DNA of 64,000 nt from Neodothiora populina (GCF_041146345.1 NW_027191413.1:744001-808000); one strand, 5' to 3'. Shown: positions 47,944 to 55,563, counted from the stretch's first letter. Program-made: numbers and translations. Notes: generated by a model from the sequence alone, not told the origin.

Positions 47944-49069
47944 TCATGTATAGTATACCAAAGCACGAGCTTCAATACTTTCTCTCGATGGATCGTCTGG
48001 CGATGCCAACGGATTCGGGAACGAGGTATGTGGAACTAGCACGAGGGCTTAGCTCGATACACCAACAGGACATGTCGTAGACAAAAGCCATACCAGCCAC
48101 TTGCCCATTCTCTGTATCCGACTGGACGAAGACCCACGCTTCCGAGACTTGTTGGTCGGAAAGATAGACCCACCTGTGAGTAGGCCTGAAGTAGAGCTGC
48201 AGGTTTTCGACCACGTAATCTACGACACTATCAGCAAGAATGGTCTACTTGTATCGTGTGCGGAGCGCGAGACCGACCTGGATATACGAGATCGCATGGC
48301 TCATGATCCTCTTTAGGTACGACGGTGCGAGGATCACACATAGCCAGAGGCCAATCTCGCACAGGTCCGATAATAGGCTTCCAGACACTGAATCATGCTT
48401 AGCCAAGTTTCACTACACGTTGTCAGTGGGAAGTGCACTTGCTTGACGCATTGTAAGTGACCGTTCGTCGTCACATCGTTGTTCCCATCATTAAGAGTCC
48501 GAGCCATGGATACTGCCCAAGGCACCGTGGTATCTTTAAATATTAACATCATCATGCCAATGGCCTGGAAGGATGGACCAACCTACCTACGTGCGCCATC
48601 GACGTGGGTTGATTGTATTGATAAGGCTCTCCGGTAGATATCGGAAATATCTCATGCCGCTTGCGTATCTTGTAGAAATCAGAAGTCGACCAGAGTCAAA
48701 GAGGACAGGTGGGGGGGCACTTACTGTATGCTCGAAAATCTGGACTCGAGTGGCTCCGAGATATTGTCGCAAAGTATTGGACAATTCCCGCAGATATACG
48801 TCTATGACCTTGTCTTTGTCGTTGAAGTCTTCGTATTGCATACTGCTCTCCAGAGGCATGATAGAGAATCCGTTCTTCTTGAGACTAAGCTCCTTCACTA
48901 CCGGACGTACATCTTCGATTGTAATATCGTGAGCCTCGAGCTCGACATTGGCGCGAGGAAAGCCAGCAGGCGGCGTGAAACGAAGTGAATATGGCTTCAC
49001 TGTGTCGTATTTGGGGTCTTTCTTCAGGAAGTATACCTGTGAACTTATGATCTTCGTATTTTCCGACAT
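47944..49069 (-). CDS. AsaB/CmcJ/GA4-desaturase-like oxidoreductase, 6 exons (third intron GC-AG)
   Basis: Exons 49069-48725, 48668-48587, 48533-48443, 48387-48278, 48219-48094, 48035-47944 join in frame. Motifs IEDVR..SLKKNGF, FEHTIRKR, AHVD, NVWKP..GPVRDWPLAMCD, HRWVYLSDQ, PHTSF, RESIEARALV. Confidence 0.85.
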
Positions 49070-49291
49070 TAGGAAGACGCTTACGACGGAAGTGAGGAGT
49101 GTTCTCATGCCTAGGATACCGTCCTTTATGTCATGCATTCTTTCCGTGTGGCTGGACTAGCTGCAGCAATGAGGATTCTTTTGTAGCGGCCCTGCATGTG
49201 GAATCGCTTATATGCCTGCCGCACGTTTGATGTAATTCACAAGTGGCACATTAAGATACCGTATGTGGATAAGCCCAGAGTCATTGCCATA

Positions 49292-52200
49292 CTATCTCGA
49301 CCAAAACACGATGAGCTCGTCCATTACCACATCGTTGAGCTCACTCAAACGCCTGGTATCATGCGGCACTTTTGTTCTGTATAACCGCTCACACGCACTT
49401 TCCATCGCGTTCGCTTCAGCAGTCTTTCCCAGAGCGCGGAGAACTTTCCACTGGTTGTATATTGCTCTTATTCGCTCCGGAAGAAACACTGCACTATTGC
49501 CATAGCATCTCAGAGCCTGGTTGAGCAACGCTCTGTACAAGTAAGCAAGCGTATCAATGGGAAGAGAGGCAAGAGTCTACCTAGCTAATTCCCAGTGACG
49601 GAGGCGTAGATGGTGGCCCGCAACTTTGACACAAAGATCAGCCGTTCGATGGTGATTGTTGCCCAGAGTGGACTTGTACTGAAGCAGAGCTCGTCGGTGA
49701 TACGTAAAGCTTTCCTCGTGCAACCCTTTGGAGTACTTGACGTTTCCGGAGGCATGTAGAATTCTACCAGTACTGGGACACATCAGGTTCTCAGTCTCCA
49801 AAGATTTGGCGGGCTACTCACATGAAAGAATTACCATCGTCTTCGCCAAAGACTGCTTCGCGATCTGCAAGTGCTTTCGTGAGAATTTCAGATGCATCTT
49901 CATATTTGCCAACAACCCAATACGCCAAAGCCAAGTTAACCAGCGGCAAGGACAGCTGCAAAGGGCTGAAGTCGTCCAGAAGGTTCATCTGCGCGATTGA
50001 CTTCTCGAAACATACTCTACCTTTCTCCCAAGCTGAGTTCAGCATGTAAGCATTACCTAGCTCGTTCCAAGATATTGCCAGGCGCATGTCCTTGCGAGCT
50101 TCAGCCTGGCCTATCTTGATTAGCATCATCTCGTTAAACCTGCTATGGTACTCCAATGCCCTGATCGGAAGATTCGTCTCTGTGGCAAAGCACCCTTTGT
50201 TGTGGTATAACTCCGCGATGGTAGCCTCAAATGCCTCTTTCTGCACTGCTGGAATATGGGAGCTGCCAGGAATAGCTTCAACCAGGGGCTCGAGGATTCT
50301 TAGAGCAACATCGCTGAAACGAGTGGACTCGTCACTGTGTCCATTCTCATGATAATACCAACCCGCATCCGTCAACAATCGCGCAAACTCATAACAGCCA
50401 TCCAAGTCACCGCCTTCGGTTCTGACAGGGCCAGACAGTTCAAGTAGCCGAGCCACATGCGGGAATAGAATCGCACACGTTGACCATCTCTCCACACCAT
50501 GACGCCATGTGAATAGCTCATATGGCCACGTCGCGGATATCAATCGAACTGCATCAAGAAAGGCAGCGTGATACTCGCCAGGTGCCATCTGTGTTCTTGT
50601 AATATCTTGGCACATACGGTGTAGCCAAAGCTGGTTGGTTTCCTTATCCTCGTTGACTAAGGATGTAGAGAGAAGCTCATGCTTAGCCTCGAGATAGGCC
50701 GCGAGGGTTTGAGGGTAGCCCTGGTATCTTGCCTTGTTTATGTGCAACGTCAACAGACGTTCTGGTATGGCGTCTGGATCAAGCATCGAAATAACATTCA
50801 GCAGGCCCCTGCCGTGCTTGAGGCTTTCGACAGCCCAGACCGAAGCTAACATGTTTCTGTGCAATGCTAGTGGAGATGTGGAATCGATGCTCCTTCTCTC
50901 CCCATATGCTGCCAGGAAGTCCGACATGGACCAATGCTGTCTCATGATCATTCCAGCCATTTGTGATAAGATAAGAGGAACCCCTCCAATTCGATCCACA
51001 ACAACCTCGGCCTGCTTCGCTTCATGAGCGTCATGCTCTCTATCAGTGAGGCATAGTAAGAGCCTCGTCGCATCATTAGTGTCGAGGGGTCCAAGTGTGA
51101 TGATTCTGGCCAGCGATCCAAACGAAAGCGGATCTCGACTTGTAATCAGAATGCTTCCAGGTGCACCATAAGGCCACGCCTCGTTCAACACTTCGGGGTC
51201 ATCAACCCCATCAAAAACGAGCAACCAAGTAGCAGTCTCCTGGAGTTCATCTTGGGATCGTGCCAGCTCCTTCCGAGGGTTCATCAACCAATTTTTGAGT
51301 AGATTCCGCGTCAGTGCCTGGTCATTGGAATCAACGGAGTCATCTGCTACCAATCCAAGCTTGACCGCAATATCTCGGAAGTCTTGCAACAGCTTCGCTC
51401 GGGTATCACCATGTACCCACATCACTGCATCAAATTGATGGAAGTAACTGCGTACGAAGTCTGATGCAGCAGAGGTCTAGCCCATACCACCAGCTCCACA
51501 TAACGCAAAGGTATTCAGTGTAGAGGTAGAAATACCGCTTGTCGACGTCGGACATAGACCTTTCGCCAAAGTCTCGCGAATACTACTGCGCACTTCGCAT
51601 CTCTTGTCCGGATTACGAGGTAATACATAGCATGGCAGGACAGGTCCGTGTGACGGTCGTGACATCGGCGAGAGTCCAAGATATAACTTACGCAAAAAGG
51701 GCTGGAGAATCGGATCTCGTTCATGGCCACTGTAGAACTTGGCTGATAAGAAAGCCCACTCCAACTCATGGCCGTCTCCGGACATAACGCTATTCTCAGG
51801 ATCGCCAGGCTCCGGATCGAACAAGAGGTCTGCAAACTCGAGGCTAGAATCTGCAACTTCCCTCTCCGACGACACCCTCGACTGCTGATCGAGATCACTC
51901 TTCTCGCTCGGACCGTTGTCAGCCGTATCAAGCCATGGTAGTGACAACAAAGCTACCTCTTGCAGATGATAACGTATGTGATCGATCATAGATTGCGGAT
52001 CCAATACTCCTGCCGCGCTTGAAACTTGACCTAGGCCCTGAAGGTGTATATCCGAACAGAATGGACACGAGGTGAAGGGGGACATCACCCTTCTCTCGCT
52101 AAGTCTCATCAATGCAGGCATCTGCGATGGCGAGAAGCCCTTCGAATGTGCCTCATAGAGATGAGATTCGAATTGCTTATCGGTATCAAACATTAGAGGC

Positions 52201-53505
52201 TTGTGGCTAGAATTCGTACAAACCCATCTCAAGGTTCGGCTTTGCGGATGCGAATGTTGATGGGACAACCACGAGTCTGTGATACGGAAGATTCTGTTTC
52301 CCTCCGAGCATCCCTCGATGAGGCACACATATGGTTCAATGTCATTCAATACGTGCTGTTTCCAACGTTCAGGCTCGGTCTCACGAGACATAAGCACGGT
52401 GCAACAATACGGACAGATAAACTCCTCACACCCAGTGGCAACTTTTGGAGGTGGAGGTATTATGACTGGTGAAACATCGGTGGGTTGATAGACAGTTGTA
52501 GGAGCATCTGCGGCATCGAGGTCGAGGCCTCGAATCTTCGGATCAGAGAAATGGCTCGCTGTCGTGTCTTCGTACTGAGCCGACCGATTACGCTGCAAAG
52601 GTATGTCTTTGTTCGAGGCTTTAGGCAGTGGGGAGATCTGAGATGGATTAACCGTGTGGTTATCTGTCGCAAACATTACTGGCAACTGTCCATCTTTCGA
52701 GAGTGTCAACCCTTTTGGGTCGAGCTTTTGTTGATGTTTTTGTCGCCATAAGAATCGTCTACGGCGTGCTACAACAGCATCAGACAAGCGTCGCGATAGG
52801 AAATTTGGTAGATCTGGGTAGCGCTTCAGCATTCTTTGCAATACGTATGCCTTAAAATCTGGGCTCGCATCTCTGCCATCGTCATCTCTCATAACATAAG
52901 CATCAGCCTTGATGTTTCGATGAATATCCGTCGGCCTTCGGATGAGAATCGACAAACGGTATAGTCTGCTTATGGCGCTACCAATATCGGCGATAGTTCT
53001 GAGGAGGAGTATCTTTACGGGATGCTCCTTGGCCGGGTCAAAGTCGACAGTACTGAGAGCGGAGGATACATAAGAAGAGAGATTTGCAGGTCGCAATCCG
53101 TATTCTTCGTAATCTTCTTCATCAATGTCGCCTTCGTCACTTGGATCGTCATTCTCATTCATTATCTCCGTAACTGAGCAGGAATTTGGCTGTGTCAATG
53201 ATTATGTCGAGAAGCACAATGCGTATTCTCTCACCACGTTGTAGATTAGCGAGTAGCCCATCCATCTGCTTGACAGTCAAGTCTTTGGCCAAAGGGCTGT
53301 CCTTCAGGCGATAGTCCAAAGACCCATGGGCGTTAGCGAAGACGCCCAGATTACCAGCCCATATGTTGAAGCGACCGCTTTGTTCCTCGATTCCCATCGA
53401 GGTATCATTGTCAAGGAATGGCTTGTCTTGACTGACGATATTTGAGATACCATGAAAGTGATCAGTGCATGCTTTTGCTATGTCTGCTATATTGACGTCC
53501 TCCAT
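49292..53505 (-). CDS. NLR-like STAND protein (helical N-terminus + C2H2-like fingers + NB-ARC + TPR) interrupted by an in-frame TAG at the P-loop Lys; possible pseudogene
   Basis: Exons 53505-53235, 53173-49822, 49772-49581, 49532-49292 give 1351 codons. Motifs RFNIWAGNLG..SLDYRL, FICPYC..WKQHVLNDIEPYVC, CPFC..HIRYH, GAGGMG*TS (TAG 51479-51477), WLLVFDGVDD, GSILITSR, GGVPL, LHRMCQD, TPR-like repeats, C-terminal LIVFWSR. Confidence 0.85.
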
Positions 53506-53836
53506 GTCAAGGGATTGTGTGGAGACCAACAAGCGTGTACGAAATCCAAGCAGATAGTTTCAGGCATCCTGGCGCAGCCGTGACGTTACTATTAAGCACC
53601 ATGGCTTCAGGTGCATGGTCAAGACTATCACACGACCGCGAGAGCCAAAACAAGGCGTCGCATGCATGATGGGCGTAAGCCACTAGACGTGGGTCATGGT
53701 GAGGCTGCCATGCGCTGTCACCTTAGCGATCTTCATGGTTGTTGAAAGTGCATATACTCTGTCCTCCAGCATCTAGACCCTATTCCTACCAGATTCTCAT
53801 CTCGTTCCGCACAAGACTCACCAGGATTACGCCGTA

Positions 53837-55563
53837 ATGTCAGGTATCGAGATCGCTGGCATTGCCCTGGCAGTCATTCCGCTGATAGTGGGAGCTGCCA
53901 ACCTTTACAGAGAAAAGGTTGATCCGAGACGCAGAGATCAGAGGATTGCAGACTTCTATCGCGATCTCGCATTCGAGGTGGAGTTTCTGCGAGTGATGCT
54001 GAGTGGCATGGTCGAACAGCCAGGGAATAGTCGACATCATCGATCAGATAGTGTGATGCAAGATCGCATCCACCATGAGCGTCTGGCGGAGAGACTTGGT
54101 AGTTCGACACCGATATTCTTGGACATACTGCAAGACAACCTGGAGTCGTTTAACCATCTCGTCTCTGAACAAGGACTGGGCCTAGAGGGCTCCTCGATGG
54201 TACATCAATCTACGATGACTGGAGAACAACGACTGACTTCGTGAACAGACCCATGGTACAGTTGTATATGCCAGACTTATAGCACTCAAGAGTCAAAGAG
54301 AGTCAGGCAGAAGTATAGCCGAGCTGAAGAAAAGGATTGTGTTCAGTTCCAATGAGCAGAGGAGGCAGAGGCTGGTCCAACGATTGCAAAGGAACAACGA
54401 AAAGCTGGAACGCTTGCTCAATCTGAGGACAATCAACAACGTAGGAAAAGACGTTAGTGGTAACGCGCCATCAACAAATTCTCGAGATGTCTTGATGCGG
54501 CTATATAAAGCCGTGGCAAAGGTGTGGCAGAAAGAATCTTGCCCATACCATGAAGCAATGATATCTCTCAGGTGTTGCTGCTCATGGTCAGAGCTTGGGT
54601 CTGGGATCAACAACGATGTGAATATTGTCATGTCTGCGCACTCAACTAAGGATTCATCATGGCAAGAGAGCAGGTTGAAATTTGCGTGAGATCTGCGGAT
54701 ACCTCGGCATCTTATGATATCAGACTGACCATTAAAATAGGAATGCTCATAGTACTAGAATCCGTTTCGCTACTGACCCAGCTGCACCAAGCCTAGCCCA
54801 AGTTCATGCTCAACGCCGACCATTTGACAGGCTTTGCGATACGATACACCAAGCCCAGCAGCATAGAGCAAACATTTGTGTTGAGTATGATGGCACCGAG
54901 CTCTGGCATGCTAGATCAACTGCAGCGCCGACGATACATATGTTGGCTTTGCGCACAACCCTGCGTGATTTGTTCCAGCGACGTCACAAGGTCTCATTAA
55001 AACAAAAGCGCATTCTCGCTGTCATCCTTGCAAAAGCACTCCTGCATTTCGGCGAGACAGTATGGTCGCAAGGAGAGTGGAACAAGATGCAATTAACATT
55101 CCTCTCAGATCCCAAAAGCACGGATCGTCAAGATTATGATTTGGACCATCCTTACATCGATGCAAAATTCGCGAAGCCTGAAAAAAGCTTTTTGGACGAT
55201 TCGAAAACACAATTTCAGATGCACCCCAATCCAAGTGTCCTGTCACTTGGTATTCTACTCCTTGAAATTGATCTTTGGGACGAGATCGAGAAACACAGAA
55301 CTGAAACAGACATGGCTGACGGGATACCCAATGTAAACACTGATCTAACCACAGCACAGGGTCTACTTCAGACCCGGTGCGATTATATCCAAGAAGATCA
55401 CAGGGCAGCACTCAACGCTTGTCTTAAGTGCGAATTTGCTGGAGACTGCAGGGTTGCGTCCTTGACAGACGACAAATTCCGGCAAGGGTTCTATGATCAG
55501 GTGGTAAGGCCGCTCGAGAAGGAGCTTTTTGTTGGGTTTAAAATCGAGGTCCATAGTTCATGA
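53837..55563 (+). CDS. Protein with HeLo-like hydrophobic N-terminal helix and a C-terminal fungal helical domain (DUF7580-like), 540 aa, 3 exons
   Basis: Exons 53837-54199, 54249-54685, 54741-55563 join in frame. N-terminus MSGIEIAGIALAVIPLIV; C-terminal RILAVILAKALLHF..W..W, HPYI, HPNPSVLSLGILLLEI, ALNACL, FYDQVVRPLEKEL. Confidence 0.78.

What the first reader, a model, noticed from the sequence alone, without database searches (positions are those of the whole stretch)
51477..51479. In-frame TAG exactly at the invariant Walker A lysine of an otherwise intact NLR
Seen: the minus strand reads GGT GGT ATG GGC TAG ACC TCT GCT (GAGGMG*TSAA) and continues in frame into Walker B (WLLVFDGVDD), GSILITSR, GGVPL, an MHD-like LHRMCQD, TPR-like repeats and two canonical introns to a normal C-terminus. 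No other lesion was seen in 1351 codons. Known: STAND P-loops are GxxGxGK[T/S], so the codon is most simply AAG changed to TAG. Inference: this could be (a) a recent null allele of an immune/incompatibility receptor, (b) a switch releasing a standalone 655-aa helical+C2H2 protein, with low-level readthrough (Gln/Tyr/Lys are the usual UAG readthrough residues in yeast) giving rare full-length receptor, (c) a target for A-to-I editing (UAG to UGG) giving a P-loop-dead Trp form, or (d) a sequencing error.
Basis: partly seen in the sequence, partly recalled or inferred. Interest (0 to 1): 0.8.

Follow-up and report, generated by a model that had tools for sequence, protein, structure and literature searches.

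The report
Fresh stop codon in fungal NLR
A fungal immune-receptor-like gene carries one real, transcribed stop codon exactly where its ATP-binding lysine should be, and it is most likely an ordinary, recently disabled copy, not a new kind of switch.

Summary
On the minus strand a four-exon gene (53505..49292) encodes a zf-C2H2_AcuF-type N-terminal region, an NB-ARC domain, DUF7779 and TPR repeats. Codon 656 (51479..51477) is TAG inside GAGGMG*TS. All 54 relatives that cover this site have Lys there. No other lesion was found: 695 stop-free codons follow the TAG, and the conserved columns are as well kept as in relatives.

The TAG is not an assembly error. An independent contig from a DNA run (depth 31) and a contig from a second run of the same sample both carry it unchanged. 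The second contig is spliced, so it comes from cDNA. The gene is therefore transcribed with UAG, with no A-to-G change in the consensus.

Nothing supports recoding. TAG ends other genes here, including this one. The context UAG-ACC is not a known leaky one. The local hairpin is no better than shuffled sequence. No deaminase gene lies nearby. The fungus is a Dothideomycete, a class without reported mRNA editing.

The best reading is a recent nonsense (null) allele of a fast-evolving fungal NLR, which is a known kind of event. Whether it is private to this isolate could not be tested, because no other run covers the site. Interest is low. The scan had no earlier finding at this place.

The parts
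53235..53505 (-). Exon 1 (ATG at 53505..53503; 90 codons plus 1 base), encoding the conserved N-terminal motif ..RFNIWAGNLGVFA..SLDYRL..
   Evidence: tblastn of relatives P0004, P0005, P0006, P0009, P0010 and P0013 matches this frame. Model built.
53174..53234 (-). Intron 1, 61 nt, GTGAGA..CTCAG
   Evidence: It is needed to join the frame of exon 1 to that of exon 2. The junction LQR|V|TEIMNEN matches P0013 (..FIRRATEALKQN..). It is not seen spliced: the X1 cDNA-like contig ends inside it at 53226.
49822..53173 (-). Exon 2: the zf-C2H2_AcuF-type N-terminal region, NB-ARC, DUF7779 and the first TPRs. It contains the in-frame TAG.
   Evidence: One X1 contig covers 49822..53226 with 0 differences.
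51477..51479 (-). In-frame TAG, codon 656, at the Walker A lysine position
   Evidence: sequence. (54 of 55 relatives have K, 1 lacks the motif). (TAG reproduced in contigs of runs X1 and X2).
51471..51497 (-). Walker A / P-loop motif GAGGMG*TS
50937..51512 (-). NB-ARC domain (Pfam PF00931), with Walker B WLLVFDGVDD at 51198..51227
   Evidence: 27.3 bits against a cut-off of 23.5, with X at the TAG. Coordinates.
50574..50837 (-). DUF7779 (PF25000), ending in the MHD-like LHRMCQD (50604..50624)
   Evidence: E = 1.3e-24.
49839..50081 (-). TPR repeats (TPR_12 / TPR_10) in exon 2. More TPR-like sequence follows in exons 3 and 4.
   Evidence: (the C-terminus aligns with P0002 and P0003).
49773..49821 (-). 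Intron 2, 49 nt, GTGAGT..CCCAG
   Evidence: It is removed exactly in X1 record 1: the joint skips 49 nt, CT..AC on the + strand.
49581..49772 (-). Exon 3
49533..49580 (-). Intron 3, 48 nt, GTAGAC..TACAG, with an in-frame TAG at its start
   Evidence: P0002 and P0003 show a 16-codon gap exactly here. It is retained in the X1 contig.
49292..49532 (-). Exon 4 with the terminal stop TAG (49292..49294)
   Evidence: The protein ends ..LIVFWSR, as do the last residues of P0002 and P0003.

Best explanation
This is a genuine single-base nonsense allele of a fungal NB-ARC/TPR NLR-like gene in a Dothideomycete. The Walker A lysine codon, most simply AAG, became TAG by an A-to-T transversion (inferred). 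The change is recent, because nothing else in the gene has decayed. The mRNA is still made and at least partly spliced (shown). Ribosomes should stop at codon 656 (inferred), giving at most a 655-residue N-terminal fragment without the nucleotide-binding switch or the TPR sensor. With two introns downstream of the stop, the mRNA is a likely target of nonsense-mediated decay (inferred). In effect it is a null, or nearly null, allele of a dispensable, fast-evolving receptor gene. That the stop sits on the catalytic lysine is best read as coincidence.
For: The TAG is in the sequence. It is reproduced with 0 differences by Logan contigs of two runs of the same sample: X2, one 30329-nt contig at depth 31.4 that spans 49200..53600, and X1, a 5182-nt contig at depth 8.99. 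The X1 contig lacks exactly the 49-nt GT..AG intron 2, so it derives from RNA, and the TAG is unchanged in it. K is the family state: 54 of the 55 best relatives have it, 1 lacks the motif, and none has another residue. This includes P0007 and P0008, which appear to sit on the same contigs as the HRQ1 orthologues of this window's HRQ1 gene (inferred from gene numbers g6204/g6210 and equal contig lengths). The gene is otherwise intact: 695 stop-free codons follow the TAG (P about 5e-16 from base composition). The window protein departs at 5 of 129 strongly conserved columns, one of them the TAG, and 28 of 53 relatives depart at least as often. NB-ARC passes Pfam's cut-off. TAG is an ordinary stop in this genome: it ends this gene where P0002 and P0003 end, and it closes the Erg28 and aminotransferase frames. 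The only tRNA in the window is a normal tRNA-Trp with anticodon CCA. Stop codons and frameshifts in NLR genes that are intact in other strains are described for Podospora (PMC13449251, passages read).
Against: The stop hits 1 of 511 possible stop-creating changes, which is an unlikely spot for a random hit. The transcript is present and spliced, not silent. The fully intact downstream frame fits continued use as well as recency. No second isolate covers the codon: the four short contigs of X3 miss it and two metagenome scans found nothing. So a TAG private to this isolate and a fixed TAG cannot be told apart. Contigs show only the consensus, and the growth stage of the RNA sample is unknown, so low-level or stage-specific editing is not excluded. 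Nonsense-mediated decay and the truncated product are inferred, not shown.
Confidence: 0.74

Rival explanations
1. Conditional premature-stop correction. An adenosine deaminase edits UAG to UIG (read as UGG, Trp) at a particular stage, such as sexual development, stress or virus infection, so that a full-length protein is made only then. This would resemble the PSC pseudogenes of Fusarium or the OLD-ZAO module of Neurospora.
For: UAG has the U at -1 that fungal editing prefers (PMC11156358, abstract and passages). The minimum-free-energy fold puts the UAG in a 5-nt loop, CUAGA. PSC-type TAGs do not always derive from TGG (PMC10776026, passage). The mRNA is made and the downstream frame is intact. 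An in-frame UAG as a brake on a costly defence gene has a precedent in OLD-ZAO and CHE1 (PMC12754623, part 1 of 3 of the text; PMC11169179, passages).
Against: The cDNA-like contig has no A>G at the site (consensus only). The fold is no more stable than shuffles: z = -0.07, and 85 of 200 shuffles fold at least as well. The stop is not conserved: 54 of 54 relatives that cover the site have K. Trp in place of the Walker A lysine would give a receptor that cannot bind nucleotide normally (established knowledge of P-loop NTPases), so editing would not restore function. No deaminase family matched among the 39 reading frames of the window that I scanned. Genome-wide editing is reported only for Sordariomycetes and one Pezizomycete and was not found in Aspergillus nidulans or Botrytis cinerea. 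The 4 papers that hold 'A-to-I', 'RNA editing' and 'Dothideomycetes' are all Fusarium studies by their titles (listing only).
Confidence: 0.06
2. The truncation is functional. The 655-residue N-terminal zf-C2H2_AcuF-type protein works on its own, and basal readthrough of UAG supplies traces of full-length receptor.
For: The transcript exists. Atlas clusters of 360 to 769-aa ascomycete proteins carry PF26082 on 36-41% of their members (scores 0.81-0.82). At those scores they are leads only, since hits under 0.9 are weak.
Against: A search with the N-terminal part alone, over proteins of 310-987 aa, returned only 2 proteins, and neither is a clear standalone relative. P0002 matches through its NB-ARC linker, and P0088 has 30% identity over 50% of the query. 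The context UAG-ACC-UCU is neither the UAG-CAR-YYA type nor a stop followed by C, the contexts known to be leaky (recalled knowledge, not from a call). Two downstream introns make the mRNA a likely target of nonsense-mediated decay (inference). The stop falls inside the P-loop and not at a domain boundary.
Confidence: 0.08
3. Sequencing or assembly error: the true codon is AAG.
For: X1 and X2 come from the same sample as the assembly may have, so they are not independent of it. An adapter-like loose end, TACGTATTGCT, suggests long-read data, which have a higher raw error rate (recalled).
Against: Two different libraries, one DNA-like and one spliced and so cDNA-like, were assembled independently by Logan and give TAG with 0 differences over the 4.4 kb laid for X2 and over the 3978 nt that X1 record 1 covers. 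An A/T substitution outside a homopolymer is not a typical systematic long-read error (recalled).
Confidence: 0.03

Closest known systems
Fungal NB-ARC/TPR NOD-like receptors (Dyrka et al. 2014, PMC4986451; seen only as search listing and abstract)
   Same: Three-part build: a variable N-terminal domain, an NB-ARC NTPase and C-terminal TPR repeats. Pfam NB-ARC, DUF7779 and TPR all match. It evolves fast: the best full-length relative has 48% identity, while HRQ1 in the same window finds 87-90%.
   Different: The Walker A lysine codon is a stop, so the encoded product lacks the NTPase and sensor parts. The N-terminal domain is of the zf-C2H2_AcuF type (PF26082), and its role in NLRs is uncharacterised as far as I know (recalled).
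Strain-polymorphic NLR pseudogenes of the Podospora anserina complex (PMC13449251; passages read)
   Same: These are NLR genes disabled by stop codons, frameshifts or transposon insertions in one strain and intact in others, which is the same kind of event in the same gene class.
   Different: Here only one isolate covers the site, so polymorphism is not shown. The lesion is a single clean transversion in a housekeeping-gene neighbourhood (KRR1, Erg28, HRQ1).
PSC ('premature stop codon corrected') pseudogenes of Fusarium graminearum (PMC10776026, passages; review PMC11156358, passages)
   Same: An otherwise intact, transcribed gene with one in-frame TAG.
   Different: PSC stops are conserved among related species, are edited to UGG in sexual tissue, and mostly derive from TGG. 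Here the relatives have Lys, no edit is seen, editing would give a P-loop-dead Trp form, and the class is not known to edit.
OLD-ZAO antiviral module of Neurospora crassa and CHE1 of Fusarium (PMC12754623, part 1 of 3 read; PMC11169179, passages)
   Same: A defence-related gene with zinc-finger motifs whose full-length product is held back by an in-frame UAG.
   Different: ZAO and CHE1 are small C2H2 transcription factors (Che1L is 310 aa). ZAO lies beside its OTT_1508-like deaminase gene, and the CHE1 stop is conserved in closely related Fusarium species. Here the gene is a 1350-residue NLR, no deaminase family matched in the window, and the stop is not conserved.

Membership tests
STAND NB-ARC NLR (fungal NB-ARC/TPR type) | Walker A / P-loop GxxxxGK[ST] with the lysine | tested here: not met
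   The sequence reads GAGGMG*TS, with a TAG where 54 of 55 relatives have K. The flanking residues fit the motif, so the gene descends from a member but does not encode a complete one.
STAND NB-ARC NLR (fungal NB-ARC/TPR type) | NB-ARC domain recognised above the curated cut-off, with a Walker B hhhhD[DE] motif | tested here: met
   PF00931 scores 27.3 bits against a cut-off of 23.5, read with X at the TAG. WLLVFDGVDD lies at 51198..51227.
STAND NB-ARC NLR (fungal NB-ARC/TPR type) | C-terminal repeat (sensor) domain and an N-terminal variable domain in one reading frame | tested here: met
   DUF7779 (E = 1.3e-24) and TPR_12/TPR_10 match. The relatives' N-terminal parts carry PF26082. The spliced model is one frame, broken only by the TAG.
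Fungal PSC-editing genes (restorative A-to-I editing) | A>G at the stop codon in RNA but not in DNA of the same strain | tested here: not met
   The spliced X1 contig (depth 8.99) and the X2 DNA contig both read TAG, with 0 other letters. This is the consensus only and the growth stage is unknown, so rare or stage-specific editing is not excluded.
Fungal PSC-editing genes (restorative A-to-I editing) | Premature stop conserved in orthologues of related species | tested here: not met
   None of the 54 relatives that cover the site has a break there. The probably syntenic P0007 and P0008 have K. The nearest relative has only 48-60% identity, so very close species were not sampled.
Fungal PSC-editing genes (restorative A-to-I editing) | Edited A preceded by U and lying in a stable hairpin loop | tested here: inconclusive
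   The U at -1 is a given for any UAG. The minimum-free-energy fold has a 5-nt loop CUAGA, but the fold energy has z = -0.07 against 200 shuffles.
Fungal PSC-editing genes (restorative A-to-I editing) | Host lineage performs mRNA A-to-I editing | not testable with these tools
   The closest named relatives by HRQ1 are Dothideomycetes. The review reports editing only in Sordariomycetes and one Pezizomycete. No whole genome is held for this window, so AME1 and OLD genes could not be sought.
OLD-ZAO type module | Target gene adjacent to an OTT_1508-like deaminase gene | tested here: not met
   No deaminase family matched among the 39 reading frames scanned: 21 across the window at E<=0.1, 16 within about 5 kb either side at E<=0.01 and 2 upstream at E<=0.01. 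Short or heavily spliced genes could have been missed.
Programmed stop-codon readthrough | Leaky context (UAG-CAR-YYA, or a stop followed by C or CUA) | tested here: not met
   The context is GGC UAG ACC UCU. The motif definitions are recalled, not taken from a call.

The most novel reading that the evidence does not exclude
The UAG is a kept, regulated brake on a costly immune receptor. The mRNA is made all the time, but full-length protein appears only when the stop is recoded, by A-to-I editing to Trp or by induced readthrough, under sexual development, stress or mycovirus infection. This would extend premature-stop correction of the OLD-ZAO kind to an NLR and to the Dothideomycetes. Alternatively, the stop was selected at the P-loop as a suppressor of an auto-active allele.
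Probability: 0.05. Interest if true: 0.7.

Novelty: new member of a known kind. Interest (0 to 1): 0.2.

Why it matters
As it stands it matters little. It is one more example of the rapid birth and death of fungal NLR genes. It also shows a practical annotation problem: two protein searches returned no product of this window for the locus, although another gene of the window is in the same collection (P0089). It would matter only if the stop proved to be fixed and recoded. That would show an immune receptor gated by stop-codon correction in a fungal class where mRNA editing is unknown.

Tried and rejected
1. Whole-genome search: no genome is held for this window, so paralogues, AME1, OLD genes and suppressor tRNAs could not be sought genome-wide.

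2. Other isolates:
- The look-up of sequencing runs listed 3 runs. Two are from one sample that may be the source of this DNA.
- The third, X3 (another organism label and study), gave four contigs of 163-191 nt, each at least 99% alike. They lie at 49293-49461, 49608-49798, 51764-51954 and 52252-52414, with 1 difference (C>A at 49340). None covers the TAG.
- No RNA holder is listed.

3. Metagenomes: the protein-guided scan gave 179 pattern matches, none confirmed. The exact DNA pattern across the codon, with NNN at the codon, gave 0 matches.

4. A hidden intron around the TAG was rejected. The only GT..AG pairs there span 11-43 nt (read), and the spliced X1 contig is continuous from 49822 to 53226.

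5. RIP as the cause was rejected. AAG to TAG is a transversion, and RIP makes C-to-T or G-to-A transitions (established knowledge). A TGG or CAG ancestor is not supported by the 54 K-bearing relatives.

6. A different reading of TAG was rejected.

7. dN/dS was not possible.

8. Pfam on the N-terminal 564-574 residues gave no family, at E<=0.01 and at E<=0.1. PF26082 is known only from the precomputed column and from the Atlas.

9. Earlier notes of this scan: none at this place, and none on other in-frame TAGs in this genome. One look-up failed on a word limit and was not repeated.

Full report
**1. What is there**

The minus strand at 51497..51471 reads GGA GCT GGT GGT ATG GGC TAG ACC TCT, that is GAGGMG*TS, with the TAG at 51479..51477. 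Two stop-to-stop frames abut at this codon: 574 codons upstream (51477..53201) and 552 downstream (49818..51476). They form one continuous protein-like translation.

**2. Gene model**

- Relatives match the frame of 53505..53235 with their N-termini and the main frame from about 53186 onward.
- A 61-nt GTGAGA..CTCAG intron (53234..53174) joins the two frames as ..LANLQR|V|TEIMNEN... This mirrors ..FIRRATEALKQN.. of P0013.
- Downstream lie a 49-nt GTGAGT..CCCAG intron (49821..49773) and a 48-nt GTAGAC..TACAG intron (49580..49533).
- The second of these is supported by a 16-codon gap in the alignments of P0002 and P0003 at exactly that place. The protein ends ..LIVFWSR, as both relatives do, followed by TAG at 49294..49292.
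- The spliced model has 655 codons, the TAG, then 695 codons.

**3. Family**

- Pfam finds DUF7779 (E = 1.3e-24) and TPR_12/TPR_10 after the stop.
- Read through with X, NB-ARC scores 27.3 bits against a cut-off of 23.5.
- A search of the large protein collection gave 87 proteins with E <= 0.001 among 7999 scored candidates. The top 54 hits are fungal or unnamed records, and most of them carry DUF7779 with NB-ARC, TPR or both. The full-length ones also carry PF26082 in the N-terminal part. The Atlas names PF26082 zf-C2H2_AcuF.
- The best matches are P0001 (48% identity, full cover) and P0002 of Delphinella strobiligena (60% over 65% of the query).
- Among the 55 best hits, 51 show G-x(1,2)-G-x-G-K-[ST]. 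Three more (P0005, P0010, P0019) show GxGK[ST] with A or S in place of the first glycine. One (P0034) shows no such motif. No relative has anything but Lys.

So the TAG replaces the Walker A lysine of an NB-ARC NTPase.

**4. Is the gene otherwise healthy?**

Yes.
- The 695 codons after the TAG hold no stop. From the base composition that has a chance of about 5e-16.
- I ran a leave-one-out test on an alignment with 53 relatives, using columns where at least 90% of the other sequences agree. The window protein departs at 5 of 129 such columns, one of them the TAG itself.
- Relatives range from 0 of 127 to 21 of 123, and 28 of 53 depart at least as often as the window protein.

There is no sign of relaxed constraint, so the lesion is young or the frame is still in use.

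**5. Is the TAG real?**

One run search gave three runs, and all three were laid on 49200..53600.
- X2 gives a single 30329-nt contig (depth 31.4) across the whole stretch with no difference.
- X1, from the same sample, gives a 5182-nt contig (depth 8.99). It covers 49200..49772 and 49822..53226, skips exactly the 49-nt intron 2 (CT..AC on the + strand), and has no other difference.
- A contig that lacks a GT..AG intron must derive from RNA. So the gene is transcribed, intron 2 is spliced, and the message carries UAG with no A>G in the consensus.
- Both runs may come from the sample behind the assembly, so they are not independent isolates. They are two libraries that Logan assembled independently, which makes an assembly or sequencing error very unlikely.
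- X3, from another organism label and study, holds four short contigs that are at least 99% alike. This shows that the species or a close kin occurs elsewhere, but none of the four covers the codon.
- Two metagenome scans found nothing.

**6. Alternative readings of the codon**

- TAG is an ordinary stop here. It ends this very gene at the homologous C-terminus, and it closes the Erg28 and aminotransferase frames.
- The only tRNA in the window is tRNA-Trp with anticodon CCA.
- The context GGC-UAG-ACC-UCU is not of a known leaky type (recalled knowledge).
- No intron can hide the codon: the spliced contig is continuous across it.
- An 81-nt fold places the UAG in a 5-nt loop, but the energy equals that of shuffles (z = -0.07; 85 of 200 shuffles fold at least as well).

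**7. Editing**

- Fungal A-to-I editing prefers U at -1 and hairpin loops and often corrects UAG (PMC11156358).
- 71 such PSC pseudogenes are known in Fusarium graminearum. Their stops are conserved and mostly derive from TGG (PMC10776026).
- The OLD-ZAO and CHE1 systems use an in-frame UAG as a brake on a costly zinc-finger regulator (PMC12754623; PMC11169179).
- This locus differs on each testable point. Relatives have Lys and not a stop. No A>G is seen. No deaminase family matched among the 39 reading frames scanned.
- A Trp at the Walker A lysine would not restore an NTPase (established knowledge).
- The fungus is a Dothideomycete. Its HRQ1 helicase finds the window's own protein at 100%, an unnamed Logan record at 90% and Dothideomycetes sp. 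NU459 at 87%.
- Genome-wide editing is reported only for Sordariomycetes and one Pezizomycete.
- The four papers that hold 'A-to-I', 'RNA editing' and 'Dothideomycetes' are all Fusarium studies by their titles. I saw the listing only.

**8. Context**

- The neighbours are housekeeping genes: HRQ1, GAL7, KRR1, Erg28, an aminotransferase and others.
- This is not a repeat-rich or NLR-cluster region.
- In Dothideomycetes sp. NU459 the NLR relative P0007 (g6204) and HRQ1 (g6210) lie on one contig. The unnamed P0008 and P0092 share a contig length of 33976.
- These relatives are therefore probably positional orthologues, and both have Lys. This is an inference from gene names and contig lengths.

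**9. Verdict**

This is a real, transcribed, single nonsense change at the Walker A lysine codon of an otherwise intact fungal NB-ARC/TPR NLR. It is most probably a recent null allele. Such NLR pseudogenes, intact in some strains and broken in others, are described in Podospora (PMC13449251). The exact position is striking, at 1 of 511 possible stop-creating changes. It is a post-hoc coincidence unless population or RNA data show otherwise. What remains open is whether the TAG is private to this isolate and whether any recoding happens at stages not sampled.

Noticed in passing
window 49533-49580 (minus strand): Intron 3 of the NLR gene (48 nt, weak donor GTAGAC) is retained in the spliced cDNA-like contig of run X1, although intron 2 is removed. 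When retained it puts an in-frame TAG right after ..HWELAR and would cut off the last 79 residues.
   Followed up: partly
window 53220-53226: The X1 contig of the NLR message ends at 53226, inside intron 1. A second X1 contig (1420 nt) runs from 53220 upstream beyond 53600 and ends in 11 loose letters that look like a long-read adapter tail (recalled). There may be a transcript start inside 'intron 1', which would make ATG 53162 (MNENDD..) the first start codon and drop the conserved exon 1. Or there may be a long 5' leader of the divergent + strand neighbour running antisense over exon 1.
   Followed up: no
window 53838-55563 (+ strand): The divergent neighbour encodes a DUF7580 protein (E = 2.4e-33). 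Its N-terminus, MSGIEIAGIALAVIPLIVGAANLY.., looks like a hydrophobic helix and recalls the N-terminal helical domains found with fungal STAND and cell-death proteins (resemblance recalled, not tested). It gave no Pfam hit of its own.
   Followed up: no
window 49292-53505: Two protein searches returned no product of this window for the NLR locus, over 612-1950 aa and 310-987 aa. The window's HRQ1 protein is present in the same collection (P0089, 100%). The gene call at this locus seems to have been dropped or made outside these lengths, probably because of the internal stop.
   Followed up: partly
window 48587-49156 (minus strand): Just downstream of the NLR gene lies a spliced gene with no Pfam match at E<=0.1. 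Its product contains ..VYFLKKDPKYDTVKPYSLRFTPPAGFPRANVELEAHDITIEDVRP... Its function is unknown here.
   Followed up: no
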